Source: a virus (lineage: Duplodnaviria; Heunggongvirae; Uroviricota; Caudoviricetes). From it: a stretch of DNA of 42,367 nt. Positions within the stretch are counted from its first letter, which is position 1, and every line of letters begins with the position of its first letter. This document shows positions 6,839-41,124 of this stretch, piece by piece. The stretch is from IMG/VR virus record IMGVR_UViG_2563366848_000004; one strand, given 5' to 3'. Under the pieces are notes generated by a model. The model saw only the letters and a list, made by a program, of their open reading frames with translations. It did not search any database and was not told where the DNA came from. Position numbers and translations under genes: made by a program.

Positions 6839-8143
6839 TTATTGACGATTAAAGTAGTTAGAGTTTAGCTCTTTAGGGAAGTAGTGTTTACGATTTACCC
6901 AAACAAATCCATCAACTTTTGATATCACAGCGACATCAACAGGCCCACCGACAGTTTCATAATCATGTGATACTTTTCTTTTGAATGCAGTGATGTTCAC
7001 TAATGATTCGGCCATATACGCAAGATCTGCCTTCCCAAGTGATTGCAACATCGATATCATTTTATTTGTATGGTTATTAACAATATAGCTTTCAAGTTTA
7101 GTATCGTGATCTTGTAAAAGTACGTTTTTGAGTTCCTCAATTTCACTGGAGAAGTGATTGGCTAGTACTCCATTGTTCATTGCAGGGAAAATATTGCTAG
7201 AAACATAATGATTAAGCCGATCAAAAACTTCCTCTGTAAGAGTTCTGTTAAAATTAATGATGTTAGGGTTGCACCCATCAATGAAAGTTACTACTTCATC
7301 TTCTTGAGCAAATGGTATAACAAACCCCATATTGGTTACCTTATTATGGGATTTATCATCAATATTATGGATCATCAATTTGTTTTTAAAAATGCCGTAG
7401 ATATGAAGAGTGCAAATGGAAGGGTAATATTCTTCCTCTCCATAACCTGTTATAACAATCCCTGAATATGTACGACTAGCATGGACTTTGAAAATTAAAC
7501 AAGTGGAATATAATATGACTTTTTCCATAAGCTCTTGCTGTATATTTTCACAGTTATCAAGAACAATAATTGATGAAATGTATGGCGATATTAAATCTTG
7601 TATATATGCTAAAGCATCATTAAACTCTTCTGTATCAAACCCTTCGAAAAAGAGATTATTCCTTAAGATTCCTATCTCTAAATCAAAGGCTTGCTTAACT
7701 ATGTTTTGAAAAATAACATTGTCGAGTTCAACGGCGGGGTTCATTGTTAAATAGTTTACTACATTATTATCATTAATGTATCTCATCAAACCTTTGAGGT
7801 TATCAACAACAAGGTTTATAACGCAAGCCTCTCTCATTTCATTTGTTATAAGGTCTGAGTTACCATTGATGAATTTTACAAAGTCATTAACATATTCTTT
7901 AATGGTAGGGAAACTAGTTTTCCCCAATTGTTTTCTATAGGATTTAATTATAAGTTCCCACGGTGCGCCACCCAGTGTCGCATTATTATAAATCATGATC
8001 CCCACGGGATGGTGTTTAGATAGTTCGAATAGTTTTTCCGCACTATTATTTATTTTTACTAATCTATTATGCTCTGTGGTGACTGCAGAGTCAGCAGCAA
8101 GGGCGATTCCAGTATTATTTATTACAACAATCTCAGCTGTCAT
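6839..8143 (-). CDS. AT-rich 435-aa protein with proteasome-beta/HslV-like Ntn-hydrolase signature; candidate lysogen-expressed defence protein
   Basis: Long ORF in a markedly AT-rich island; start at ATG 8143 (MTAEIVV..., GGGA upstream) preferred over track start 8242, which has no SD; N-terminus T2-x15-D18 ... K30-I and C-terminus DYETVGGPVDVAVISKVDGFVWV resemble Ntn threonine-protease motifs (from memory); same strand as and downstream of the repressor. Confidence 0.75.
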   Translation of the reverse strand: MTAEIVVINNTGIALAADSAVTTEHNRLVKINNSAEKLFELSKHHPVGIMIYNNATLGGAPWELIIKSYRKQLGKTSFPTIKEYVNDFVKFINGNSDLITNEMREACVINLVVDNLKGLMRYINDNNVVNYLTMNPAVELDNVIFQNIVKQAFDLEIGILRNNLFFEGFDTEEFNDALAYIQDLISPYISSIIVLDNCENIQQELMEKVILYSTCLIFKVHASRTYSGIVITGYGEEEYYPSICTLHIYGIFKNKLMIHNIDDKSHNKVTNMGFVIPFAQEDEVVTFIDGCNPNIINFNRTLTEEVFDRLNHYVSSNIFPAMNNGVLANHFSSEIEELKNVLLQDHDTKLESYIVNNHTNKMISMLQSLGKADLAYMAESLVNITAFKRKVSHDYETVGGPVDVAVISKVDGFVWVNRKHYFPKELNSNYFNRQ

Positions 8144-8164
8144 TGCAAAACATCCCGTGTAGTA

Positions 8165-8201
8165 GTGATAAATATTAATTAAATTGATAGTTTTTTTCAA
8201 T
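8165..8201 (-). promoter_or_regulatory. putative sigma70 promoter for the 435-aa gene
   Basis: Minus-strand TTGAAA (8200..8195) - 17 nt - TAATAT (8177..8172), about 30 nt upstream of start codon 8143; AT-rich DNA raises the chance of spurious matches. Confidence 0.35.
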
Positions 8202-8284
8202 CTAACATAAATGGCGGAATCACCCCCCAGTAAAGACATCATTGTCTCATGGGAACTAAAAATTCAGGACAAACCTAAAGCGAT

Positions 8285-8671
8285 TCAGTCCCCCTGCGAG
8301 CGAATCCGCCCCTTCATGTACTTCTCATACAGCTCATCCAGTTCCTTAAGACGTATCGAAAAGATGCGGAGCATGTTCTGTTGCTCTTCTTCTGGCAGCT
8401 GGCGGTAGAGCTCAAGCAGGCGCTGTTCGTCCGGCTTAAGTCCGTCCTTCTCGCCGACATCCTCACCGAGTAACCAAGGCACAGACACGCCAGCTGCGTC
8501 AGCGACAGCGAGAGCTGATTTCTTGCTGATCACGCCTTTTTTAAACCAGCCGTTCACAGACTGCGGGGTTACCCCAGCAACCCTAGCCATATCGGATTTG
8601 GTCATACCGCGCCCGTTCAGCTCTGAAAGGCGTTCGACAAGTATCGGATTAAGTACGGTTTTCTCTTTCAT
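8285..8671 (-). CDS. prophage repressor, HTH XRE family (CI/RacR-like)
   Basis: 128-aa ORF; HTH segment MTKSDMARVAGVTPQSVNGWFKKG; divergent from the Cro-like gene across an operator-rich intergenic region. Confidence 0.8.
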   Translation of the reverse strand: MKEKTVLNPILVERLSELNGRGMTKSDMARVAGVTPQSVNGWFKKGVISKKSALAVADAAGVSVPWLLGEDVGEKDGLKPDEQRLLELYRQLPEEEQQNMLRIFSIRLKELDELYEKYMKGRIRSQGD

Positions 8672-18331: not shown

Positions 18332-18385
18332 CATTACAGAAGCCCTTCACTGAGGGGCTTCGATAATGGAGCACTGGGATTATTC

Positions 18386-19006
18386 ATGAACAGACCACAC
18401 CCACCAGCGCATTTTACGATGCCACCTGACCCGAAGCCTTACATCAGCATAATGCCCGCCATTGACGTTGGCGAGTGGCTGAATCAGCACATCCTGAGCG
18501 ATGAGGGTGACCTCTACAACCCTGACCACCAGCATTTGCTTGAAGCGGATCTGTGCTTTCTCTGGGCGTCGAACACTTTCGAGAAGAAAGGGCGGTCCGT
18601 GCTGGGGCAGGCGGAAGAAGTGGCAATGCGGGCTGGAGGCTGGCAGAAAGCGCGGATGGAGCAGCAGATGTATGAATGGTTCGGCAGGGTGCCGCAGTTC
18701 ATCATCACGCTGGCCGCCGATTACTGCTCGCAATGTTCCGATCTGGAATTCTGCGCGCTGATAGAGCACGAGCTTTATCACATCTGCCAAGCGACAGATG
18801 AATTTGGTGTGCCGAAGTTCACGCAGGAAGGGCAGCCAAAGCTGAAGCTGCGCGGCCATGACGTGGAAGAGTTTGTGGGCGTGGTTCGCCGTTACGGTGC
18901 GAGCCGTGATGTGCAGGAAATGATTGATGCGGCGAATCAGCCAGCGGAGGTTGCTCATCTCGATATTGCCAGAGCTTGCGGGACGTGCATGCTGCGACTG
19001 GCTTAA
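18386..19006 (+). CDS. hypothetical protein with HExxH motif (possible metallopeptidase-like)
   Basis: 206-aa ORF; IEHELYHICQ contains HELYH; located between lysis and terminase genes. Confidence 0.55.
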   Translation: MNRPHPPAHFTMPPDPKPYISIMPAIDVGEWLNQHILSDEGDLYNPDHQHLLEADLCFLWASNTFEKKGRSVLGQAEEVAMRAGGWQKARMEQQMYEWFGRVPQFIITLAADYCSQCSDLEFCALIEHELYHICQATDEFGVPKFTQEGQPKLKLRGHDVEEFVGVVRRYGASRDVQEMIDAANQPAEVAHLDIARACGTCMLRLA

Positions 19007-19036
19007 AACTGGACTGAATAAGACGAATGGTGATTT

Positions 19037-19510
19037 ATGGCTGCATTAAAACCTGATGTGAAAGCCTTCATCATTCAGTCGCTTGCGTGCTATGACACGC
19101 CGACGCAGGTGGTTGAGGCTGTCCAAAAAGAATTCGGGATCAAGATCACCCGCCAGCAGGCTGAATCTCACGACCCCACGAAGGCCAGCGGTAAGACGCT
19201 CGCCAAAAAGTGGATCGAGATGTTCCACGCTACGCGCGAACGGTTCCTGACCGAAACCAGCGACATTCCGATCGCGAACAAATCCTATCGCCTCCGCGTG
19301 CTTGACCGCATGGCAACCAAAACCGAGGGGATGAAAAACTTCTCCCTGACGGCGCAGCTGATTGAACAGGCCGCGAAAGAGGTTGGCGACGCTTACACCA
19401 ATAAGCTGAAGGTTGAAAGCACTGGCAAGGATGGCGGCCCGATCAAGACCGAGACGACCAACCTCACCGCAGATCAGGCCGCAGAGATTTACCGCAAGAT
19501 GATGGGGTGA
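19037..19510 (+). CDS. putative terminase small subunit
   Basis: 157-aa ORF immediately upstream of the terminase large subunit; assignment mainly positional. Confidence 0.5.
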   Translation: MAALKPDVKAFIIQSLACYDTPTQVVEAVQKEFGIKITRQQAESHDPTKASGKTLAKKWIEMFHATRERFLTETSDIPIANKSYRLRVLDRMATKTEGMKNFSLTAQLIEQAAKEVGDAYTNKLKVESTGKDGGPIKTETTNLTADQAAEIYRKMMG

Positions 19511-19535
19511 TAGCCGCATGTTGCGGCTATGGATT

Positions 19536-19748
19536 CTAGGCTTGTTTTGGTCGAGTAATACGGCCAAGAGCTTTAATTGCAGCGACTTTGACGTTGTGAT
19601 TTAGATCCGAAGATAAATCAAGTAAGCGATTTACATGAGCTGGCGTTGCTGAAGCACTCTCGCCGAGAGCATAAATTGCAGACAATTTTACTTCGTTGTT
19701 AAGGTCGTTGGTTAATTCCAACAACTTAGCGCTAACTGCTGGTGTCAT
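19536..19748 (-). CDS. hypothetical HEAT-like repeat protein (70 aa), antisense between terminase genes
   Basis: Internal ATG preceded by AGGAGG; two repeats of N.VK.AAI.ALG type (NEVKLSAIYALGE / NHNVKVAAIKALGR); comparatively AT-rich. Confidence 0.4.
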   Translation of the reverse strand: MTPAVSAKLLELTNDLNNEVKLSAIYALGESASATPAHVNRLLDLSSDLNHNVKVAAIKALGRITRPKQA

Positions 19749-19819
19749 AAAACCTCCTGTAATTGGTACATAAACAATATCAACTTTGTTACGCAAAAAC
19801 TCAATGCCTGGAATTGTTT

Positions 19820-21442
19820 ATGCCTCTTCCGTTTGAATTCGATTTCAGAAACCCTGATTACCAGATGGTTTTTGAATGGCGGATGGAGCGCTTACAGCGC
19901 ATTCGCCAGAACCCTGAAATGCTGCCAGCACTAAAGCAGTTTTACCGCACCAACCCGGCACAGTTCATCATCGACTGGGGTATGACTACTGACCCGCGTA
20001 ACATCGATTATGGCCTGCCGGTCACAATCCCTTTTCTGCTGTTCCCGAAACAGGAAGAGTGGATTCACTGGATCATTGAGCGGCGCGAACGACTGGAGAA
20101 CGGCATCACCGAAAAGAGCCGCGAAATGGGGCTCAGTTGGACCGCGATCGGGCTGGCCTGCTCGCTTTGTCTCTTCAACAAAGAAATGGTTATCGGTTTC
20201 GGCTCCCGTAAAGAGGAATACGTCGACAGCACCGGTGACCCGAAGGCGCTGTTCTGGAAGGCGCGAAAGTTCGTGGAAACACTGCCCATCGAGTTTCGTG
20301 GTTCGTGGGACGAGAAGAAGCATGCGCCGTATATGCGCGTTGAGTTTCCAGATACTGGCGCGGTTATCAAAGGCGAGGCTGGCGACAATATCGGACGTGG
20401 TGACCGTACCACGCTCTACCTGGTGGATGAAGCTGCATTCCTCCAGCGTCCTCTGTTGATTGATGCGGCGCTGTCGCAAACCACCCGTTGCCGTATTGAC
20501 CTGAGCTCGGTTAATGGCATGGCGAACCCGTTCGCGCAGAAGCGCCACGGCGGAAAAATACCAGTATTCACATTCCACTGGCGAGATGACCCGCGCAAGG
20601 ATGAAGAGTGGTATCGCAGGGAGTGCGAGAAAATCGATAATCCGGTGGTGGTGGCGCAGGAACTTGACCTGAACTACAGCGCATCTGCGGAAGGCGTCCT
20701 GATCCCGTCCGACTGGGTACAGGCTGCCGTCGACGCGCATATCAAACTTGGTATTCAGCCAACGGGCAAGCGACTGGGCGCGATGGACGTCGCCGACGAA
20801 GGCCGGGACAAAAATGCCTTTTCGACCCGTCACGGCTTCCTTCTGGAGAACGTGCGTGAATGGTCCGGCGTTGGCAGCGACATTTACCAGTCTGTTGAGA
20901 AGGTCTTCGGCTTTTGCGAACAGGACAACCTCGAAGAGTTTCGCTTCGACGAGGACGGCCTGGGTGCTGGCGTTCGCGGCGATGCGCGCGCCATCAACGA
21001 ACTGCGTTACGTAGCGCGCCGACCGTCAATACTCGCCACACCGTTTCGTGGTAGCGGCGCGGTATTTGATCCGGACGATGAAGCGGTGCGCGGGGACAAC
21101 GGACAGGCCGCACGCCTGAACAAGGACTTCTTCGCCAACGCCAAGGCCCAGAGCTGGTGGTGGCTACGCAAGCTTTTCCAGAACACCTATCGCGCCGTGG
21201 TTGAGGGCATGGCCTACAACCCGGACGAAATCATCTCAATCAGCAGCGCCATGGCGAGCAAAGACAAACTCATCATTGAGCTGTCGCAGCCGACCTACTC
21301 CATTAATGGCGTGGGGAAAATCGTTGTTGATAAACAGCCTGATGGCACCAAGTCGCCGAACCTCGCCGACTCGGTGATGATCAGCTACGCGCCAATGAAT
21401 TCAGCCCTGAACATCTGGGAGCTGCTAGGGAGACAGGCCTGA
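19820..21442 (+). CDS. terminase large subunit
   Basis: 541 aa from ATG 19820 (track ORF starts at TTG 19763); ATPase Walker-B-like [10 protein letters not shown] and C-terminal nuclease-type region; followed by portal with ATGA overlap. Confidence 0.8.
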
Positions 21443-22911
21443 TGGCACGAAACAAGCAATCCTCTCAGCGAACGGCACAGGCCACCGCTGACGGCTACGA
21501 GAACTTCGTCGCCCGCGTTGGGATGCAGACGCCTAACCAGCATTCAGCATCGACCTACCGGGCGAACTTCACCAGCCGCAACCGCATGCTGGTGGAATGG
21601 TCATATCGCGGTTCGTGGGTTATCGGTGAAGCGGTCGACGCTATCCCGGACGATATGACCCGAAAGGGCATTCGCATCACTTCGGAGATTGACGCCAAAG
21701 ACCGTGGCACCCTCGAAGCGCAACTGGATGAGTTGCAGATCTGGGATGCGCTGAACGACGTGCTGAAATGGTCGCGCCTCTACGGCGGCGCGGTCGGCTT
21801 CATCATGATCGAGGGGCAAGCACCAATGACCCCGCTGCGACTCGAAACCATTGGCGAGGGCAAGTTTAAGGGCATTCTCCCGCTCGACCGCTGGATGATT
21901 AACCCGGTGCTGACACGCCGCATTAAAGAGATGGGGCCGGACCTCGGCAAGCCTGAGTTTTACGACGTGGTGACCACCGCAACGGGCATTCCGGCCTGGC
22001 GCATCCATCACAGCCGCCTGATCCGCTTTGATGGCGTCACGCTGCCATTCCAGCAGAAGATGACCGAAAACGAATGGGGAATGTCGGTTGTAGAGCGTAT
22101 CTGGGATCGGCTTACTGCGTTCGATAGCGCTACTGTCGGCGCGGCGCAGCTGGTCTATAAAGCGCATCTGCGTACCTATAGCGTGGAGAAGTTGCGCGAG
22201 CTTATCGCGCTTGGAGGCCCGGCGTTCGAAGCGTTGCTGAAGAACATCGACCTGATCCGCCAGTTCCAGAGCAATGAAGGTATGACGCTCATGGACTCGC
22301 GGGATAAGTTCGAAACCCACCAGTACAGCTTTAGTGGTCTGGATGACATTCTTTCGCAGTTTGCTGAGCAGATCAGCGGTGCCGTTGGTATCCCGCTGGT
22401 ACGCCTGTTCGGTCAATCCCCGAAAGGCTTCTCTACTGGTGATGCAGACCTCGCCAACTATTACGACCGGGTGAGCTCATTGCAGGAGCGCCGCTTACGG
22501 CTGCCGATGCGCCGGATACTGGACATTATGCACCGCTCGGAACTCGGAAAGCCGCTGCCGGACGATTTCACGTTTGAGTTTAACCCGCTATGGCAAATGT
22601 CAGACGTTGACCGATCAACGGTGGCCGTAAACACCACCAACGCGATCAGTACCGCGCTGGGCGACGGATTGATGACGCGTAAGGCGGCGATGACCGACCT
22701 GCGCGAAAACTCTGACGTCACCGGCATCGGGGCATCCATTACCGACGAGGATATCGAGAATGCCGAAGACGAAGCGCCGCCAGGCATCGGCGAACTTGGC
22801 GACAAACCGCCAGAGCCGCCAGGCGGAGATCCGATATCGAACGAGCCTACGGCAGATAGCGCGGGCGGTCGGGGATATCGTAAATGGTCGCTACGATGGT
22901 TCAAACGATAG
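21442..22911 (+). CDS. portal protein
   Basis: 489-aa ORF immediately after terL; size and position typical; acidic C-terminal tail. Confidence 0.7.
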   Translation: MARNKQSSQRTAQATADGYENFVARVGMQTPNQHSASTYRANFTSRNRMLVEWSYRGSWVIGEAVDAIPDDMTRKGIRITSEIDAKDRGTLEAQLDELQIWDALNDVLKWSRLYGGAVGFIMIEGQAPMTPLRLETIGEGKFKGILPLDRWMINPVLTRRIKEMGPDLGKPEFYDVVTTATGIPAWRIHHSRLIRFDGVTLPFQQKMTENEWGMSVVERIWDRLTAFDSATVGAAQLVYKAHLRTYSVEKLRELIALGGPAFEALLKNIDLIRQFQSNEGMTLMDSRDKFETHQYSFSGLDDILSQFAEQISGAVGIPLVRLFGQSPKGFSTGDADLANYYDRVSSLQERRLRLPMRRILDIMHRSELGKPLPDDFTFEFNPLWQMSDVDRSTVAVNTTNAISTALGDGLMTRKAAMTDLRENSDVTGIGASITDEDIENAEDEAPPGIGELGDKPPEPPGGDPISNEPTADSAGGRGYRKWSLRWFKR

Positions 22912-23533
22912 CGTCACCGAAATAATGGATGCGCTGGAGCGCTACAGCGAAATCATCACCCCCTGGGCGACTAAGGTTGCTGAGAGCTTCACCGCCGACA
23001 TTGCGCGCCAGAATGAAAAGCAGTGGCGTCAGCACAGTCGGAACATCAGCGCAGAACTACGCAACATGGTCGACCGCGCCCCGGTAGGCCAGGTGATGAA
23101 ATCCATCGTCGCCGAGCAAATTAAGTACATCAAATCTCTGCCTCTTGAGGCCGCCGATCGGGTGTATGACATTCAGAACAAGGCCATCGAGGCTGTAGTA
23201 ACTGGTGGCCGCGCTGAGCCATTCGCGAAAGAGATAGCTGCTTCCGGTGACGTGTCACGCTCACGAGCGAACCTTATCTCCCGGACTGAGCTTGGGCGCG
23301 CAACCGGTGCATTGGATCAGGCGCGTGCGCTGTCAATCGGCTCGAATGGTTATATCTGGCGTACAGCCGAAGATGGCGACGTCCGGCATTCTCATCGAGA
23401 GATGGAAGGGAAGTTTGTCGAATGGGGCCGACCTCCAACGCTTGACGGCATGACCGGTCACGCTGGCGAGCTCCCGAACTGCCGCTGTTACAAAGAAATC
23501 GTCTTCCCCAACCCTCATTCTTATCTCGCCTGA
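22760..23533 (+). CDS. head morphogenesis protein (Mu F / SPP1 gp7-like minor head protein)
   Basis: C-terminal region RTELGRATGALDQARALSIGSNGYIWRTAEDGDVRHSHREMEGKFVEW typical of this family; track start overlaps the portal 3' end by about 150 nt, next in-frame ATG is 22925. Confidence 0.65.
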   Translation: MPKTKRRQASANLATNRQSRQAEIRYRTSLRQIARAVGDIVNGRYDGSNDSVTEIMDALERYSEIITPWATKVAESFTADIARQNEKQWRQHSRNISAELRNMVDRAPVGQVMKSIVAEQIKYIKSLPLEAADRVYDIQNKAIEAVVTGGRAEPFAKEIAASGDVSRSRANLISRTELGRATGALDQARALSIGSNGYIWRTAEDGDVRHSHREMEGKFVEWGRPPTLDGMTGHAGELPNCRCYKEIVFPNPHSYLA

Positions 23534-23547
23534 ATCGCAGGTAAACC

Positions 23548-24780
23548 ATGAAATATTTTTTCAATACCCGGCTGGGGGAAACCCGTTATCAGCTGGCTGA
23601 CGGCTCGCTGCTGTGCAAAGACGTGCCGATAGGTCGAACGGGTAAGCAGCTTTACGGCGCTGCCGATCTGCCAAACCTCAAACCCGACAAGCTCGGCGAG
23701 ATAGTCGTAACGCGCTCTCCTGATCAGGTATTCCATCCGGCCACGCTCGCCTCATTCGAAGGGATGAGCATCACGATCCTGCATCCTGAAGATGAAAACG
23801 GGAATGTGCGGCTGGTCAACCCCGAGAACTGGAAAGAGCTTGCGGTCGGGCATCTTCAGAACGTTCGGCGCGGGACTGGTGATCAGTCTGATTTGATGCT
23901 GGCTGACCTTATCGTCAAAGACGAAAGCGCCATTCAGCTGATCGAAGATGGTCTGCGCGAAGTGTCGTGCGGCTATGACGCTGAGTACGAGCAGACCGAA
24001 CCCGGAAAAGCCGAGCAGGTCGATATTACCGGAAACCATGTGGCTCTTGTCCCTAAAGGCAGAGCCGGAAATCGTTGTGCAATTGGAGACAGAGACACAA
24101 TGGCAAATCAAAAGAAAAGCTGGTGGACCCGCATGCGCACGGCCATCAAAACGGGTGACGCTGACACCATGAACGAACTGCTGGACTCTGCGCCAGCGGC
24201 GGTAACGGGTGACGAAGGGGATCTGCCGAGCGGCGTTAACCTCAACATTAACCTTTCACCGCAGCAACCATTGCCGGACAAAAAGCCGGAAATGGGCGGA
24301 GAGCCAACCGGCGACGGCGAGGACGATATCAAAACCTTGCTCAAAGCCCTGCTGGCTAAGCTCGAAGGAACTGCGACGGGCGATAACGACAATAAGCCTG
24401 ACGAAAAAGACAAAAAAGATCCGACCTGCGACGGCGAGGACGGCGAAGAGGAAACCACGATTACCGGTGACTCTGCCTATCGTGCCGAGGTTATCGTCCC
24501 GGGTATCGATCTGAGCCGTAAGGTGAAACCGACCGCGTTCAAACGTGATGTGCTGGCTGCCGCTGACAAAACACTGGTTCGCCAGGTTGTCGGTGATGCG
24601 GATATCCGCAAATTGCCCAAGCAATCGGTAGATATGGCGTTTAACGCCGTGTCAGAGATTGCCAAAGGGCGAAACACCCGCAGCACCACGGGCGATGCAC
24701 AACGTCCAAATATGGGCATGACCAGCATCGCTTCCCTGAACAAACAAAACGCCGACTTCTGGTCTAACCGCAAAGGATAA
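23548..24780 (+). CDS. putative capsid scaffolding/maturation protein
   Basis: 410-aa ORF upstream of the major capsid gene with an acidic low-complexity central region; assignment positional. Confidence 0.5.
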   Translation: MKYFFNTRLGETRYQLADGSLLCKDVPIGRTGKQLYGAADLPNLKPDKLGEIVVTRSPDQVFHPATLASFEGMSITILHPEDENGNVRLVNPENWKELAVGHLQNVRRGTGDQSDLMLADLIVKDESAIQLIEDGLREVSCGYDAEYEQTEPGKAEQVDITGNHVALVPKGRAGNRCAIGDRDTMANQKKSWWTRMRTAIKTGDADTMNELLDSAPAAVTGDEGDLPSGVNLNINLSPQQPLPDKKPEMGGEPTGDGEDDIKTLLKALLAKLEGTATGDNDNKPDEKDKKDPTCDGEDGEEETTITGDSAYRAEVIVPGIDLSRKVKPTAFKRDVLAAADKTLVRQVVGDADIRKLPKQSVDMAFNAVSEIAKGRNTRSTTGDAQRPNMGMTSIASLNKQNADFWSNRKG

Positions 24781-24784
24781 TCCA

Positions 24785-25288
24785 ATGACTGCATATCTGT
24801 ACCGGATGCCTGTTGGCATTGCCGGGGCTATCTCTCGCCCGCAGGACTTAACCGTCGAACCGGTGATCCTTAAATCCGCTAACGCCTTCGCTGCCTATGG
24901 TCTGGCTGGCAAATACGACGCTGACGGCTTTTTCGTGCCGCTGGCGGACGGTGACACCGCCGACAAGGTGAAGGGGATCTACGTTCGTCCGTATCCGACC
25001 ACATCACAGCCAGACATGGTTCGCCAGGTGGGGACGGATAAGAACTTCCCGGGTGACGCCATGAAGCGTGGCTACATGACCGTTAACCTTGGTTCTGACT
25101 TTGATGCCAGCACCATCAAAAAAGGTGACCCGGTATACGTTGTTGTCTCCACTGATGAATCTATTAAAGTGCCGCTGGGTGGTTTCTGCTCTTCAAGCGT
25201 GGAAGGGAAAACTGTCGTACTCGCGAATGCTGAATTTACTGGTGCCGGTGACGCTAACGGTAATGCAGAAATCTCCTGGAAGATTTAA
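24785..25288 (+). CDS. putative head structural/decoration protein
   Basis: 167-aa ORF between scaffold-like and major capsid genes. Confidence 0.45.
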   Translation: MTAYLYRMPVGIAGAISRPQDLTVEPVILKSANAFAAYGLAGKYDADGFFVPLADGDTADKVKGIYVRPYPTTSQPDMVRQVGTDKNFPGDAMKRGYMTVNLGSDFDASTIKKGDPVYVVVSTDESIKVPLGGFCSSSVEGKTVVLANAEFTGAGDANGNAEISWKI

Positions 25289-25299
25289 GGAACAGACAA

Positions 25300-26241
25300 A
25301 TGATTACTTTTGATCAGGCAACCGTAGATAGCTCCGGTGCCTTTCTCATCGGGGAGCTGGAGCGACTCGACCAGACGCTGAACCTGCCTCTGGTGGGGTA
25401 CACCTGGACCCGAGATATTCAACTGCGTGAAGACGTGTCTATCGCAGATGACATTTCCAGCTGGACGAATACCAGCTTCGCCGCTGCGGGTACTGGTGCA
25501 AATCCGAATGGTAAAAACTGGGTAGGCAAAGACTCCACCGCTATTGCTGGCGTGAACGTGGATATCAGCAAAGACGGCAATCCACTGAACCTCTGGGGTA
25601 TGGAACTGGGCTGGACCGTTGTAGAGCTGGCAGCTGCTCAGCAGGTAGGCCGCCCGATTGATACCCAGAAGTACGACGGGATGCAGCTCAAATGGCAGAT
25701 GGACAACGACGAGCAGGTTTACATCGGTGATGACGCACTCGGCCTGAAAGGTCTGGCAAACCTCGTCGGTGTGACGCTGAACAACGCGCCGAAGACCTGG
25801 GCGAACTCAACCAACGACGAGATCCTCGATAGCGTGAACAGCATTCTGTCTAATGCCTGGGCAGCATCCGGTTATTCCATCGTGCCTTCTGATCTGCGCA
25901 TTCCGCCAGAGCAGTATTCACTGCTGGCGAGCCGTAAGGTTTCCGAAGCGGGTAACCAGTCACTGCTGACCTATCTGGCTGTGAACACTATCGCTTTCCA
26001 CCAGAACGGCGTTCCGCTTGAAATCAAAGCGGTCAAATGGCTGAAAGGGCGTGGGGTTGGCGGTAAAGACCGTATGATCGCCTACACCAACGACAAGAAA
26101 TACGTGCGCTATCCGCTGGTGCCGTTGCAGAGCGTTCCTGTCCAGTATCGCGGTCTGTATCAGATTGCGACCTACTACGGCAAGCTCGGTGCGGTTGAGC
26201 CAGTGTACAAAGAAACCCTGTCCTACGTGGACGGTATCTGA
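25300..26241 (+). CDS. major capsid protein (putative)
   Basis: 313-aa ORF with strong codon usage in the head-gene block after scaffold-like and decoration-like genes. Confidence 0.6.
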   Translation: MITFDQATVDSSGAFLIGELERLDQTLNLPLVGYTWTRDIQLREDVSIADDISSWTNTSFAAAGTGANPNGKNWVGKDSTAIAGVNVDISKDGNPLNLWGMELGWTVVELAAAQQVGRPIDTQKYDGMQLKWQMDNDEQVYIGDDALGLKGLANLVGVTLNNAPKTWANSTNDEILDSVNSILSNAWAASGYSIVPSDLRIPPEQYSLLASRKVSEAGNQSLLTYLAVNTIAFHQNGVPLEIKAVKWLKGRGVGGKDRMIAYTNDKKYVRYPLVPLQSVPVQYRGLYQIATYYGKLGAVEPVYKETLSYVDGI

Positions 26242-26282
26242 TAACCAGAACGGCCCCGAAAGGGGCCAGAAGGGAACTGAAA

Positions 26283-26672
26283 ATGGCGAAAGAAAAGCTG
26301 GTTACCATCCATGTTCACACCCCGTTTACGCTGACGCTCGGCGATCAGTCAAAAAGGGAGTTTGGCCGGGGACGGCATAACGTACCGGAAGAGGTCGCGT
26401 CGCACTGGTTCACCCAGGCGCACTCCGAGCTTTCCGAAAGCGTGATTAGCGACACCGATGATCTGCAACCCATTATCGACAGCCTGCAAGCTCAGATTGC
26501 CGACAAAGATAAGCAGATTATCGATAAAGATCAGTTGATTGCCGATCTGCGAGAAGCGCTGCTTAAGCTGCAAGAGCAGAACGACAGCCTGCAAGCGCAG
26601 ATTGCTGCCGCCCAGACTGGCGGTAATGGGGCGAAAGATGCCAAAGAATCAAAGCCTGCCAACAGTAAGTGA
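26283..26672 (+). CDS. hypothetical head-associated protein with C-terminal coiled coil
   Basis: 129-aa ORF; heptad-like [44 protein letters not shown]. Confidence 0.5.
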
Positions 26673-40077: not shown

Positions 40078-41124
40078 TTATTTGTTATTTTCTTCTAACG
40101 TTATATGTTTGATTGATTCTCTGTTGTAAGTATAAGTTATATGTATTTTCCCATTTGAGCTTTGTATAATCGCAGGATAGGAGAACTCTTTTCCCTCTTG
40201 TGATTCCAGCGTTAACACATTACCCCATGTTTTCCCGTTATCATTAGATCTGGAAATAGACAAGATGCTTCTGTCTTTCCCTGGGTTATGCACAATTAAC
40301 CCTGTACCATCTCGTAATACGATGCCGTCAACACCACTATTAGTTGAGGGTATCGTGCTTTTTCTTAGCGTAGTCCATGAGTGACCACTATCTGATGACT
40401 GAGATTCCATTAATACTCCTTGATCGCTGCGAGTATACATTTTTATCTCATTATCACGGAATTTTAATAGCGTTGGTTGTATAGCTGAGGTGCCTGTAGG
40501 TTTCGATACTTCTATCTTATTAAAATTCTTCATGTTACTGGTTGTTTCTATGTGAACAAACCATCCCTTATCATTCTCCTCACTGGAAGGGAACAAAACG
40601 TTCTTTCCAGAAAGAATTGGCTTGTTTTTTATTGGCCCGTAAATTCCGTTTGGCAATGCTTGTTTTTTACTCCAACTTAACCCATTGTTGGTCGAAGTAA
40701 TATATTTACCTTCCCATGTGCTAGGTGTTTTTCCTACTTTATAGAAAAGGTATGTTTTATTATGTATATTGAATAAAACTGGATTCCATGTAGGAAGCGG
40801 CTTGCCATCCTCACTGCCATAGGCAACAACGCGCGGTTTTGACCATCCGGATTCAGTCATGGAGGATTGCCAAATCTTTACGTCATCATCACCCTCTTTT
40901 GTCCCACCAAACCATGAGACAAGGATGGTTCCATTACTCATCTCTGCAATAGTGCTTGCGTGAGATTCTTTTATCAACCCCAGTGGGAAGATCAATTCTT
41001 GCTTTATAATTTTAAATGTGCTTTCAGCGTGTGCTAATAGTGATAGCTGAAAAGTTAGAAAGCCTAAAATGAAATAAACATATTTACGCATCTTTGCCAT
41101 TCTATAAAAATTTAACATTATCAT
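40078..41124 (-). CDS. secreted BNR/Asp-box repeat protein (sialidase/glycosidase-like), moron
   Basis: 348-aa ORF with AGGGAG SD; N-terminal signal-peptide-like segment ending LLAHA; three Asp-box-like motifs (STNNGLSWS, SSDSGHSWT, SRSNDNGKTWG); AT-rich; opposite strand to the tail genes. Confidence 0.7.
   Translation of the reverse strand: MIMLNFYRMAKMRKYVYFILGFLTFQLSLLAHAESTFKIIKQELIFPLGLIKESHASTIAEMSNGTILVSWFGGTKEGDDDVKIWQSSMTESGWSKPRVVAYGSEDGKPLPTWNPVLFNIHNKTYLFYKVGKTPSTWEGKYITSTNNGLSWSKKQALPNGIYGPIKNKPILSGKNVLFPSSEENDKGWFVHIETTSNMKNFNKIEVSKPTGTSAIQPTLLKFRDNEIKMYTRSDQGVLMESQSSDSGHSWTTLRKSTIPSTNSGVDGIVLRDGTGLIVHNPGKDRSILSISRSNDNGKTWGNVLTLESQEGKEFSYPAIIQSSNGKIHITYTYNRESIKHITLEENNK

What the first reader, a model, noticed from the sequence alone, without database searches (positions are those of the whole stretch)
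19536..19748. Antisense 70-aa HEAT-like repeat ORF wedged between the terminase subunit genes
Terminase small and large subunit genes are normally adjacent or overlapping. Here they are separated by about 300 bp of comparatively AT-rich DNA carrying a minus-strand ORF with an AGGAGG SD and two HEAT/PBS-like repeats (NEVKLSAIYALGE, NHNVKVAAIKALGR). It may be an inserted accessory gene or, alternatively, a chance ORF.
Basis: seen in the sequence. Interest (0 to 1): 0.45.

Follow-up and report, generated by a model that had tools for sequence, protein, structure and literature searches.

The report
Antisense mini-HEAT moron between terminase genes
The small backwards-facing gene between the two DNA-packaging genes of this E. 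coli prophage is real: it is a self-contained add-on cassette for a 70-residue two-HEAT-repeat protein of unknown function, whose relatives sit in other enterobacterial prophages and in more than a thousand IncI conjugative plasmids.

Summary
Window 19536-19748 (-) is a 70-aa ORF with AGGAGG 4 nt upstream. It passes Pfam's HEAT_2 and HEAT cut-offs and models as four helices (pLDDT 92).

It lies in a 309-bp, 41% GC insert (19511-19819) that exactly fills the terS stop / terL start junction. Of the 80 closest terL relatives, 73 have a 2-bp gap there and 4 carry this cassette. Phage Omnitron is collinear for 12.9 kb at 97.4% identity, with this as the only gap.

Alleles 50-66% identical occupy the same junction in Salmonella, Yersinia, Proteus and other prophages. 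All keep the SD, a TTGAnn-17-(C/G)ATATT promoter and a hairpin after the terS stop. Synonymous sites are saturated while pN is 0.21-0.38.

More distant 66-72-aa relatives sit head-to-head with terS in other prophages, and next to excA in about 1,200 IncI plasmids, where hha is the alternative occupant.

So it is a mobile moron, not a chance ORF and not a packaging component. Function is untested. My best guess (about 0.35) is a resident-state protein binder that excludes competing phages, like Tab of Pseudomonas phage JBD26. Tab has the same architecture but is not homologous. The main rival is a host-protein modulator.

The parts
19037..19510 (+). terS (DUF2280-type small terminase), the left flank of the insert. 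Its last ~39 codons (about 19391-19507) are a tail shared with otherwise unrelated TerS families that pair with this TerL.
   Evidence: Pfam DUF2280, E = 9e-50. 2-bp coupling to terL in 73 of 80 relatives. Tail 64-77% identical in Terminase_2-type and 190-aa TerS proteins.
19511..19819 (.). 309-bp inserted cassette (moron). It replaces the dinucleotide TC found in empty-site relatives.
   Evidence: Alignment with Citrobacter phage Omnitron. It is the only gap in a 12.9-kb block at 97.4% identity. GC is 0.411 against 0.55-0.57 in the flanks. Present in 4 of 80 closest terL relatives and in 5 of 347 terL-positive complete E. coli genomes.
19511..19529 (.). GC-rich hairpin TAGCCGCA-tgt-TGCGGCTA between the convergent terS and HEAT stop codons. 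Presumed terminator or 3'-end stabiliser of the leftward transcript.
   Evidence: RNA fold on the minus strand gives -13.3 kcal/mol, z = -5.1. A hairpin with a different stem sequence sits at the same place in every divergent allele. It has no good U-tract, so terminator function is inferred.
19536..19748 (-). CDS of the 70-aa two-HEAT-repeat protein: MTPAVSAKLLELTNDLNNEVKLSAIYALGESASATPAHVNRLLDLSSDLNHNVKVAAIKALGRITRPKQA
   Evidence: RefSeq annotates it as 'HEAT repeat domain-containing protein' (WP_032214630.1 and WP_136769304.1).
19753..19758 (-). Shine-Dalgarno sequence AGGAGG, 4 nt upstream of the ATG.
   Evidence: A GGAGG-type SD is conserved at the same place in all eight group-1 alleles.
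19776..19804 (-). Predicted sigma-70 promoter for the HEAT gene: -35 TTGAGT (19799-19804), 17-nt spacer, -10 GATATT (19776-19781). Expected start is near 19769.
   Evidence: It matches 8 of 12 consensus positions, below the generic scan threshold. However, TTGAnn-17-(C/G)ATATT ending 27-30 nt before the ATG recurs in six of the seven other divergent alleles, in otherwise unalignable DNA. L020 has the variant TTGAAT-17-CAAATT ending 24 nt before the ATG.
19820..21442 (+). terL (large terminase), the right flank of the insert. Its ribosome-binding region is now supplied by the cassette.
   Evidence: PHROG_2 terminase large subunit, E = 3.5e-31. RefSeq 'TerL protein'.

Best explanation
Established (about 0.9): this is a real gene carried on an autonomous moron cassette. 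The cassette comprises a promoter, SD, 70-codon ORF and hairpin. It was dropped precisely between the terS stop and the terL start and points against the late operon.

Committed mechanism (about 0.35, which is the confidence given for this entry), in four steps.
1. Host sigma-70 RNA polymerase transcribes the cassette leftwards from about 19769 to the hairpin at 19511-19529, independently of late transcription. The protein is therefore made in the lysogen. This is inferred from the conserved promoter.
2. After induction, late transcription runs head-on through the cassette and damps it. This is inferred by analogy.
3. The product is a four-helix, two-HEAT-repeat module, a natural miniature of the artificial alphaRep binders. 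The fold is predicted with high confidence. It would bind a partner protein stoichiometrically through its conserved helix-B face (Y26, E30, K59, R63, plus R66). The binding is inferred.
4. The partner is a protein of a competing, superinfecting phage, so the prophage excludes rivals. Tab of Pseudomonas phage JBD26 does this from the same genomic position. This step is inferred.

The protein is not part of this phage's own packaging machinery.
For: Insertion polymorphism with exact boundaries. Foreign base composition.

Conserved SD, promoter and hairpin across alleles that share only 50-66% protein identity.

Purifying selection on the protein: dN/dS 0.04-0.39 where measurable.

Allele divergence is uncoupled from the backbone, as expected for a swappable conflict gene. 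L018 has TerL at 95.6% identity but HEAT at 62%.

HEAT fold, with the best structural and sequence matches in the PDB all alphaRep protein binders.

Positions equivalent to the alphaRep binding face are the most conserved. Mean column entropy is 1.0 there, against 1.76 for helix A and 1.89 for the inter-repeat loop.

Relatives sit on IncI conjugative plasmids, which have no terminase. That rules out a packaging-specific role.

Direct precedent: Tab is 83 aa, on the minus strand, has its own promoter, lies between terS and terL, is expressed from the prophage and blocks rival phages (PMC10884400). IncI plasmids are known carriers of phage-inhibition genes (PMC8004404).
Against: There is no expression or phenotype data of any kind.

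No match to any defence model beyond a generic HEAT-ARM repeat hit.

Not homologous to Tab (hhalign probability 0.3%). There is no anti-Tab-like plus-strand partner. The only plus-strand ORF in the insert is 28 aa and not conserved.

The binding face is conserved from Escherichia to Tatumella and from phage to plasmid. That fits a conserved host target at least as well as a variable phage target.

The promoter is only an 8 of 12 consensus match. The hairpin lacks a U-tract.
Confidence: 0.35

Rival explanations
1. Host-protein modulator, with an Hha-like role. The mini-HEAT protein binds a conserved enterobacterial protein, for example a nucleoid or regulatory protein. It tunes host or element gene expression for the benefit of the resident element, and has no direct anti-phage activity.
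For: In IncI plasmids the slot next to excA holds either the HEAT cassette (about 1,114-1,215 plasmids) or hha (303 plasmids), with near-identical flanks. One or the other fills about 99% of the 1,437 plasmids that share the flank.

In my searches the family is restricted to Enterobacterales. From my own knowledge, the Hha/YmoA family has the same restriction.

The putative binding face is conserved across genera and across phage and plasmid carriers.
Against: No homology to Hha (hhalign probability 0.4%; no Hha Pfam hit).

The trbA-excA region is a known variable region, so the alternation may be hitch-hiking (PMC8004404).

In prophages the usual alternative is an empty site (73 of 80) or unrelated DUF genes. 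No host-tuning function is therefore required at that position.
Confidence: 0.25
2. Anti-defence protein. The constitutive promoter fires as soon as the DNA enters a cell. The binder then neutralises a host immune sensor, or shields a phage protein from one.
For: A sigma-70 promoter on incoming DNA would act early, whatever strand it lies on. Small single-domain binders are typical anti-defence proteins (my own knowledge). TerL, the neighbouring gene product, is a known trigger of Avs-type sensors (PMC13601566, title and abstract only).
Against: In IncI plasmids the gene lies at the far end of the tra region. The known anti-restriction genes ardA and klcA and the SOS inhibitor psiB lie elsewhere on the plasmid (gene table of PMC4288162).

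In phages it lies in the late region, head-on to late transcription. That orientation is unfavourable for shielding late proteins.
Confidence: 0.12
3. Accessory or regulatory factor of this phage's own terminase. It would bind the TerS tail or TerL, or its antisense transcription would set terS/terL expression.
For: In every prophage locus examined it lies beside terS, either between terS and terL or head-to-head with terS.
Against: About 95% of the closest relatives package DNA without it.

Its geometry relative to terS differs between groups, convergent in one and divergent in the other.

It is found with at least six different terminase modules. It also lies beside decayed terS fragments and on plasmids that have no terminase.

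HEAT divergence does not track TerL divergence.

The head-to-head terS slot is a general hot spot for unrelated small antisense ORFs.
Confidence: 0.05
4. Chance ORF in a non-coding AT-rich spacer that holds, for example, a pac or cos site or a regulatory region.
For: The ORF is short and the DNA is AT-rich. The generic promoter scan found nothing.
Against: Pfam hits above the curated cut-offs. pLDDT 92. A family of at least 141 clusters, 66-72 aa long. Saturated synonymous sites against constrained non-synonymous sites. A conserved SD. No Rfam match.
Confidence: 0.01

Closest known systems
Tab (tail assembly blocker, gp31) of Pseudomonas phage JBD26 (PMC10884400)
   Same: A small protein (83 aa against 70 aa) encoded between terS and terL of a temperate phage. 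It is on the strand opposite the late operon, has its own promoter, and is absent from close relatives (a moron). Tab is experimentally shown to be expressed from the prophage and to block rival phages by protein binding, without an enzymatic domain.
   Different: No sequence or profile similarity (hhalign probability 0.3%). Tab has no Pfam domain. Tab always comes with a plus-strand anti-Tab gene after terS, and none is present here. The paper reports Tab homologues only in close relatives of JBD26, whereas this family spans many Enterobacterales prophages and IncI plasmids. The function of the HEAT protein is untested.
alphaRep artificial repeat binders, and the natural HEAT_2 / PBS-type HEAT repeats they were designed from
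   Same: The same 31-residue helix-turn-helix repeat. Foldseek TM-scores of 0.78-0.83 to alphaRep chains. The top 21 PDB sequence hits are all alphaRep. Pfam HEAT_2 and HEAT are above their cut-offs.
   Different: Only two repeats and no cap repeats. It is a natural gene on mobile elements. The positions randomised in alphaRep libraries are here the most conserved. The Pfam HEAT_PBS model itself is below its cut-off.
Classical lambdoid morons
   Same: A self-contained unit of promoter, ORF and hairpin, inserted between two late genes. It has deviant base composition and a patchy distribution, and runs opposite to late transcription.
   Different: It is cytoplasmic by inference, as I saw no signal-peptide-like N-terminus (not tested with a predictor). 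It sits at the terS/terL junction, which is otherwise translationally coupled. The same cassette family also occurs on conjugative plasmids.
Hha/YmoA of IncI plasmids
   Same: A helical protein of about 69 aa. It occupies exactly the same slot beside excA in the IncI plasmids that lack the HEAT cassette.
   Different: Not homologous. It lies on the opposite strand. I found no evidence that hha occurs in the prophage slots.

Membership tests
HEAT repeat proteins (Pfam HEAT_2 PF13646, HEAT PF02985) | Profile score at or above the curated gathering cut-off. | tested here: met
   HEAT_2 scores 35.1 bits against a cut-off of 27.7. HEAT scores 31.0 against 23.5.
HEAT repeat proteins (Pfam HEAT_2 PF13646, HEAT PF02985) | Tandem repeats of about 30-40 residues, each a pair of antiparallel helices. 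| tested here: met
   The AF2 model (pLDDT 92) has helices at residues 3-12, 18-29, 36-45 and 51-65. TM-score is about 0.8 to alphaRep HEAT-like repeats.
PBS-lyase HEAT-like repeat (Pfam HEAT_PBS PF03130) | Profile score at or above the gathering cut-off. | tested here: not met
15.6 bits against a cut-off of 20.9.
Phage moron | Present in one genome and absent, with precise boundaries, from close relatives. | tested here: met
   The 309 bp correspond to 'TC' in Omnitron. 73 of 80 relatives have a 2-bp gap. It is the only gap in 12.9 kb at 97.4% identity.
Phage moron | Own promoter and terminator flanking the ORF. | tested here: inconclusive
   A TTGAnn-17-(C/G)ATATT motif and a post-stop hairpin are conserved across divergent alleles. 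The promoter is only an 8 of 12 consensus match, the hairpin has no U-tract, and there is no transcript data.
Phage moron | Base composition different from the surrounding genes. | tested here: met
   GC 0.41 against 0.55-0.57. GC3 0.33 against 0.68.
Phage moron | Expressed from the repressed prophage. | not testable with these tools
   Needs strand-specific RNA-seq or a reporter in a lysogen.
Tab / anti-Tab defence system (JBD26) | Sequence homology to Tab. | tested here: not met
   hhalign probability 0.3%.
Tab / anti-Tab defence system (JBD26) | Minus-strand gene with its own promoter between terS and terL. | tested here: met
   compared with JBD26 gp29-gp32.
Tab / anti-Tab defence system (JBD26) | Cognate anti-Tab gene on the late strand directly after terS. 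| tested here: not met
   The only plus-strand ORF in the insert is 28 aa (19518-19604), and it is absent from divergent alleles.
Tab / anti-Tab defence system (JBD26) | Blocks assembly of superinfecting phages. | not testable with these tools
   Needs plaque assays.
Hha/YmoA family | Sequence homology to Hha. | tested here: not met
   hhalign probability 0.4%. No Hha-family Pfam hit at E <= 1.
Known anti-phage defence proteins (PADLOC-DB v2) | Match to a defence-protein model. | tested here: not met
   Only an 18-bit match to repeats inside a 1,972-residue HEAT-ARM model. The plasmid homologue P0193 has no hit.

The most novel reading that the evidence does not exclude
The cassette encodes a new class of mobile-element effector. 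It would be a minimal natural alphaRep-like binder that travels with its own promoter between prophage terminase junctions and IncI conjugative plasmids. It would act either as a single-protein exclusion factor against rival phages (Tab-like but unrelated), or as a functional substitute for Hha that targets a conserved enterobacterial protein such as an H-NS-type nucleoid protein.
Probability: 0.2. Interest if true: 0.7.

Novelty: new variant of a known kind. Interest (0 to 1): 0.45.

Why it matters
If the protein is an exclusion factor or a host modulator, it would be a second, unrelated example of the Tab-type arrangement: a small antisense gene wedged between the terminase genes. It would also be the first with a recognisable binding scaffold.

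It would assign a function to an unnamed ORF present in the archetypal plasmid ColIb-P9 and about 1,200 other IncI plasmids, many from clinical and food-animal isolates. A two-repeat natural binder is also easy to test, because the candidate binding residues are predictable.

Even without a function, the locus is a clean case of one promoter-bearing cassette moving between phages and plasmids. The plasmid copy still carries a decayed fragment of a phage terS gene.

Tried and rejected
- **PHROGs:** only a marginal partial hit (phrog_3609, E = 0.0011, 21 residues). The family is effectively absent from PHROGs v4.
- **NCBIfam:** nothing meaningful.
- **PADLOC:** only generic repeat similarity.
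- **Exhaustive profile search of 1.84 billion representatives:** swamped by long multi-repeat HEAT proteins and uninformative for function.
- **tblastn against 50,697 GenBank phage records:** no match. The gene is so far seen only in prophages, IMG/VR contigs and plasmids.
- **tblastn of the window allele against plasmids at 1e-8:** no match. Only the distant subfamily is plasmid-borne.
- **Rfam on the window and on L052:** no match.
- **BFVD fold search:** nothing better than generic HEAT or LRV repeat proteins, all with E > 0.1.
- **A plus-strand partner gene like anti-Tab:** rejected.
- **Homology to Tab or Hha:** rejected.
- **Guilt by slot at the head-to-head terS position:** the alternative cargo is DUF2158, DUF6953, DUF6173 and unknowns, so it gives no functional hint.
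- **Literature:** no paper mentions this protein, its RefSeq accession, or HEAT repeats together with morons or superinfection exclusion.
- **Generic promoter scan:** found no promoter. The promoter call rests on cross-allele conservation.
- **Plus-strand terminator-like site at 19545-19569:** at chance level (1 found, 0.8 expected).
- **Fused-chain AlphaFold complex model:** considered but not attempted.

Full report
**1. The observation**

The window carries a minus-strand ORF at 19536-19748.
- It has an ATG start, 70 codons and a TAG stop. AGGAGG lies at 19753-19758, 4 nt upstream.
- It sits in the 309 bp between the stop of a DUF2280-type small terminase gene (19037-19510) and the ATG of terL (19820-21442).
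- The DUF2280 hit has Pfam E = 9e-50. terL matches PHROG_2 at E = 3.5e-31.
- The spacer is 41% GC against 55-57% for the flanks. GC3 is 0.33 for the ORF against 0.68 for terL.
- The ORF passes Pfam's curated cut-offs for HEAT_2 (35.1 bits against 27.7) and HEAT (31 against 23.5). It does not pass HEAT_PBS.
- AlphaFold2 gives a confident model of four helices (pLDDT 92, pTM 0.80).

**2. It is an insertion**

Citrobacter phage Omnitron matches the flanks at about 98%. It has only 'TC' between the terS TGA and the terL ATG. Across the whole window, Omnitron shares one collinear block (18332-31246, 97.4% identity). Its only gap is 19512-19819.

Of the 80 closest terL relatives in IMG/VR (at least 95% aa identity):

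| State of the terS/terL junction | Loci |
|---|---|
| 2-bp gap | 73 |
| 4-bp gap | 2 |
| Identical-length 309-bp HEAT cassette | 4 |
| Unrelated 176-bp non-coding insert (L052) | 1 |

In complete E. coli genomes this terL family occurs in 347 of 5,426 genomes. This HEAT allele occurs in 5 of them, in two different terS backgrounds. RefSeq annotates it 'HEAT repeat domain-containing protein'. There are no flanking direct repeats. The cassette simply replaces two bases and is bounded by the conserved terS 3' end and terL 5' end.

**3. The cassette is a conserved functional unit**

Alleles only 50-66% identical in protein occupy the same junction, always antisense. They occur in prophages of Salmonella, Yersinia and Proteus, in IMG/VR contigs, and, judging from a near-identical protein, in Serratia. 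Their TerL is 59-96% identical to the window's. Their TerS belongs to at least three families: DUF2280, Terminase_2 and a 190-aa type.

All eight alleles examined keep these features:
- a GGAGG-type SD;
- a promoter motif with a 17-nt spacer. It is TTGAnn-17-(C/G)ATATT ending 27-30 nt before the ATG in seven alleles. L020 has TTGAAT-17-CAAATT ending 24 nt before the ATG;
- a GC-rich hairpin directly after the terS stop, whose stem sequence differs from allele to allele. The window hairpin folds at -13.3 kcal/mol, z = -5.

The DNA between these elements is not alignable, so their persistence is a phylogenetic footprint.

In the window the promoter is -35 TTGAGT (19799-19804) and -10 GATATT (19776-19781). 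The alternative TTG start used in one RefSeq record (19796) lies inside the spacer, so the 70-aa form is correct.

Between alleles, synonymous sites are saturated (pS 0.6-0.9) while pN is 0.21-0.38. For the one close pair, dN/dS is 0.04. HEAT divergence does not track backbone divergence: L018 has TerL at 95.6% identity but HEAT at 62%. Alleles are therefore swapped as cassettes.

**4. The protein**

The protein has two 31-residue HEAT repeats.
- The best structural matches in the PDB are the artificial alphaRep binders (TM-score 0.78-0.83).
- A family profile finds alphaRep chains as its top 21 PDB sequence hits.
- Positions equivalent to the alphaRep binding face are the most conserved in the family. 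These lie on helix B and include Y26, E30, K59 and R63; R66 is also invariant.
- Mean column entropy on that face is 1.0. It is 1.76 for helix A and 1.89 for the inter-repeat loop.

The mapping onto alphaRep positions rests on my reading of the repeat register, not on a superposition.

**5. The family is wider than this junction**

A profile search finds at least 141 clusters of 66-72-aa proteins, all in Enterobacterales. Genera include Escherichia, Salmonella, Enterobacter, Citrobacter, Pantoea, Serratia, Proteus, Yersinia, Rahnella, Erwinia and Tatumella. None has a name beyond 'HEAT repeat domain-containing protein'.

A second prophage arrangement places the gene head-to-head with a Terminase_2-type terS. 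There are about 27 nt between the two start codons, and the gene is again antisense to the late operon. Several prophages with a different functional terS keep a decayed 5' fragment of that Terminase_2 terS upstream of the HEAT gene.

The most abundant members are not in phages at all.
- 1,215 of 72,556 PLSDB plasmids carry the gene, and 1,201 of those are conjugative. The loci inspected are IncI-type and include ColIb-P9.
- In those loci it is convergent with excA at the end of traV-W-X-Y-excA.
- The plasmid copy also keeps the decayed terS start ('MALTYKQESTIASDST*' against the intact 'MALTDKQEMFCREYLIDL'). The cassette therefore moved from phage to plasmid with its upstream region.
- In 303 other IncI plasmids, such as pESBL-EA11, the same slot holds hha on the other strand, between near-identical flanks.
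- One or the other fills about 99% of the 1,437 plasmids that share the flank.

The head-to-head terS slot in prophages is a hot spot for other small antisense ORFs: DUF2158, DUF6953, DUF6173 and unknowns. HEAT is present in only 2 of 76 such loci.

**6. How it most likely works**

Shown:
- the anatomy and the insertion polymorphism;
- selection on the protein;
- the predicted fold;
- mobility between element types.

Inferred:
- leftward sigma-70 transcription, independent of the late operon and ending at the hairpin;
- expression in the lysogen and damping by head-on late transcription after induction;
- stoichiometric binding of a partner through the conserved helix-B face.

The plasmid copies and the decayed-terS contexts exclude a role in this phage's own packaging. 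So do the 95% of siblings that lack the gene.

The closest precedent is Tab of Pseudomonas phage JBD26. Tab is 83 aa, lies on the minus strand between terS and terL, has its own promoter, is expressed from the prophage and blocks tail assembly of rival phages (PMC10884400). Antisense placement as an on/off device tied to the phage life cycle has also been shown for ith/tha in staphylococcal phages (PMC11087260).

My probabilities for the function:

| Reading | Probability |
|---|---|
| Tab-like exclusion of competing phages (committed) | about 0.35 |
| Host-protein modulator (suggested by the hha alternation and the conserved face) | about 0.25 |
| Anti-defence | about 0.12 |
| Own-terminase role | about 0.05 |
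| Chance ORF | about 0.01 |
| Unassigned | remainder |

**7. Comparison with known families**

- It is a member of the HEAT repeat superfamily, by both score and fold.
- It fits the moron definition in three of four features. Expression in the lysogen is untested.
- It is not a Tab family member. There is no homology and no anti-Tab partner. It resembles Tab in architecture only.
- It is not an Hha family member.
- No defence-model match.
- No PHROG family.
- No GenBank phage record carries it.
- No literature mentions it.

**8. Verdict**

The gene's existence is already in RefSeq annotation. What appears new relative to the literature I could search:
- its cassette nature;
- its conserved expression signals;
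- its Tab-like placement;
- its spread between prophages and IncI plasmids;
- its alternation with hha.

Function is unknown and readily testable. Interest is moderate.

Noticed in passing
L125-L129, L136 and L139 (IncI plasmids, e.g. ColIb-P9 NC_002122.1 49647-49856), compared with L137 and L138 (pESBL-EA11 NC_018659.1 81319-81528): A 68-69-aa relative of the window protein (about 42% identity) sits convergent with excA in about 1,200 IncI-complex conjugative plasmids. In 303 others the same slot, with near-identical flanks, holds hha on the other strand. Almost every plasmid that shares the flank has one or the other.
   Followed up: yes
L136:4860-5000, L125:3860-4000, and upstream of the HEAT gene in L026, L029, L031, L035 and L118: A decayed 5' fragment of a Terminase_2-type terS gene persists upstream of the HEAT gene. 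The intact form begins 'MALTDKQEMFCREYLIDL'. The IncI copy reads 'MALTYKQESTIASDST*'. It persists on plasmids and in prophages that use a different terS. This suggests the cassette moved with this fragment, perhaps because it holds the promoter.
   Followed up: partly
window 19391-19507 (TerS residues 119-157): The last 35-39 residues of this DUF2280 TerS are 64-77% identical to the C-terminal tails of otherwise unrelated TerS proteins that pair with the same TerL family. Those are a 340-aa Terminase_2 type and a 190-aa type. It looks like a swappable TerL-docking tail and supports calling DUF2280 a small terminase.
   Followed up: partly
L052:2325-2500: One close relative has a different 176-bp insert at the same terS/terL junction. 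It is 51% GC, has no ORF and no Rfam match, and ends in a plus-strand terminator-like hairpin (GGCTCGCTTAGGCGGGCC followed by TTTTTATTT) just before the terL ATG.
   Followed up: partly
L140-L219, the 17-28 nt upstream of the terS start: The head-to-head slot in front of Terminase_2-type terS genes is a hot spot for small antisense ORFs. These are DUF2158 (15 loci), an unknown 78-aa protein (9), DUF6173 (5), an unknown 112-aa protein (5) and an unknown 150-aa protein (5). DUF6953 lies about 275 nt away in 12 loci. All are uncharacterised.
   Followed up: partly
window 6839-8242 (-): A 467-aa ORF in a strongly AT-rich island (GC 0.32-0.36 against 0.52 for the window). It lies next to an HTH_3 repressor-like gene (8285-8671). 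It has no Pfam or PADLOC match and may be another accessory gene in the immunity region.
   Followed up: partly
window 40078-41124 (-): A 348-aa BNR_2 (sialidase-like) protein, Pfam E = 4e-70. It is encoded antisense in a low-GC island (0.36-0.40) downstream of the plus-strand structural genes, and looks like a second antisense moron.
   Followed up: partly
window 34802-35692 (+): A GC dip (0.41-0.45) over two ORFs of 114 and 181 aa with no Pfam match, within the plus-strand late region. Omnitron lacks 35147-35711.
   Followed up: no
L130:4001-8219 (Proteus mirabilis): In one Proteus locus no terS is called beyond the HEAT gene. Unrelated genes (a response regulator and a hydrolase) follow instead. 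The HEAT gene may therefore mark the edge of a prophage remnant there.
   Followed up: no
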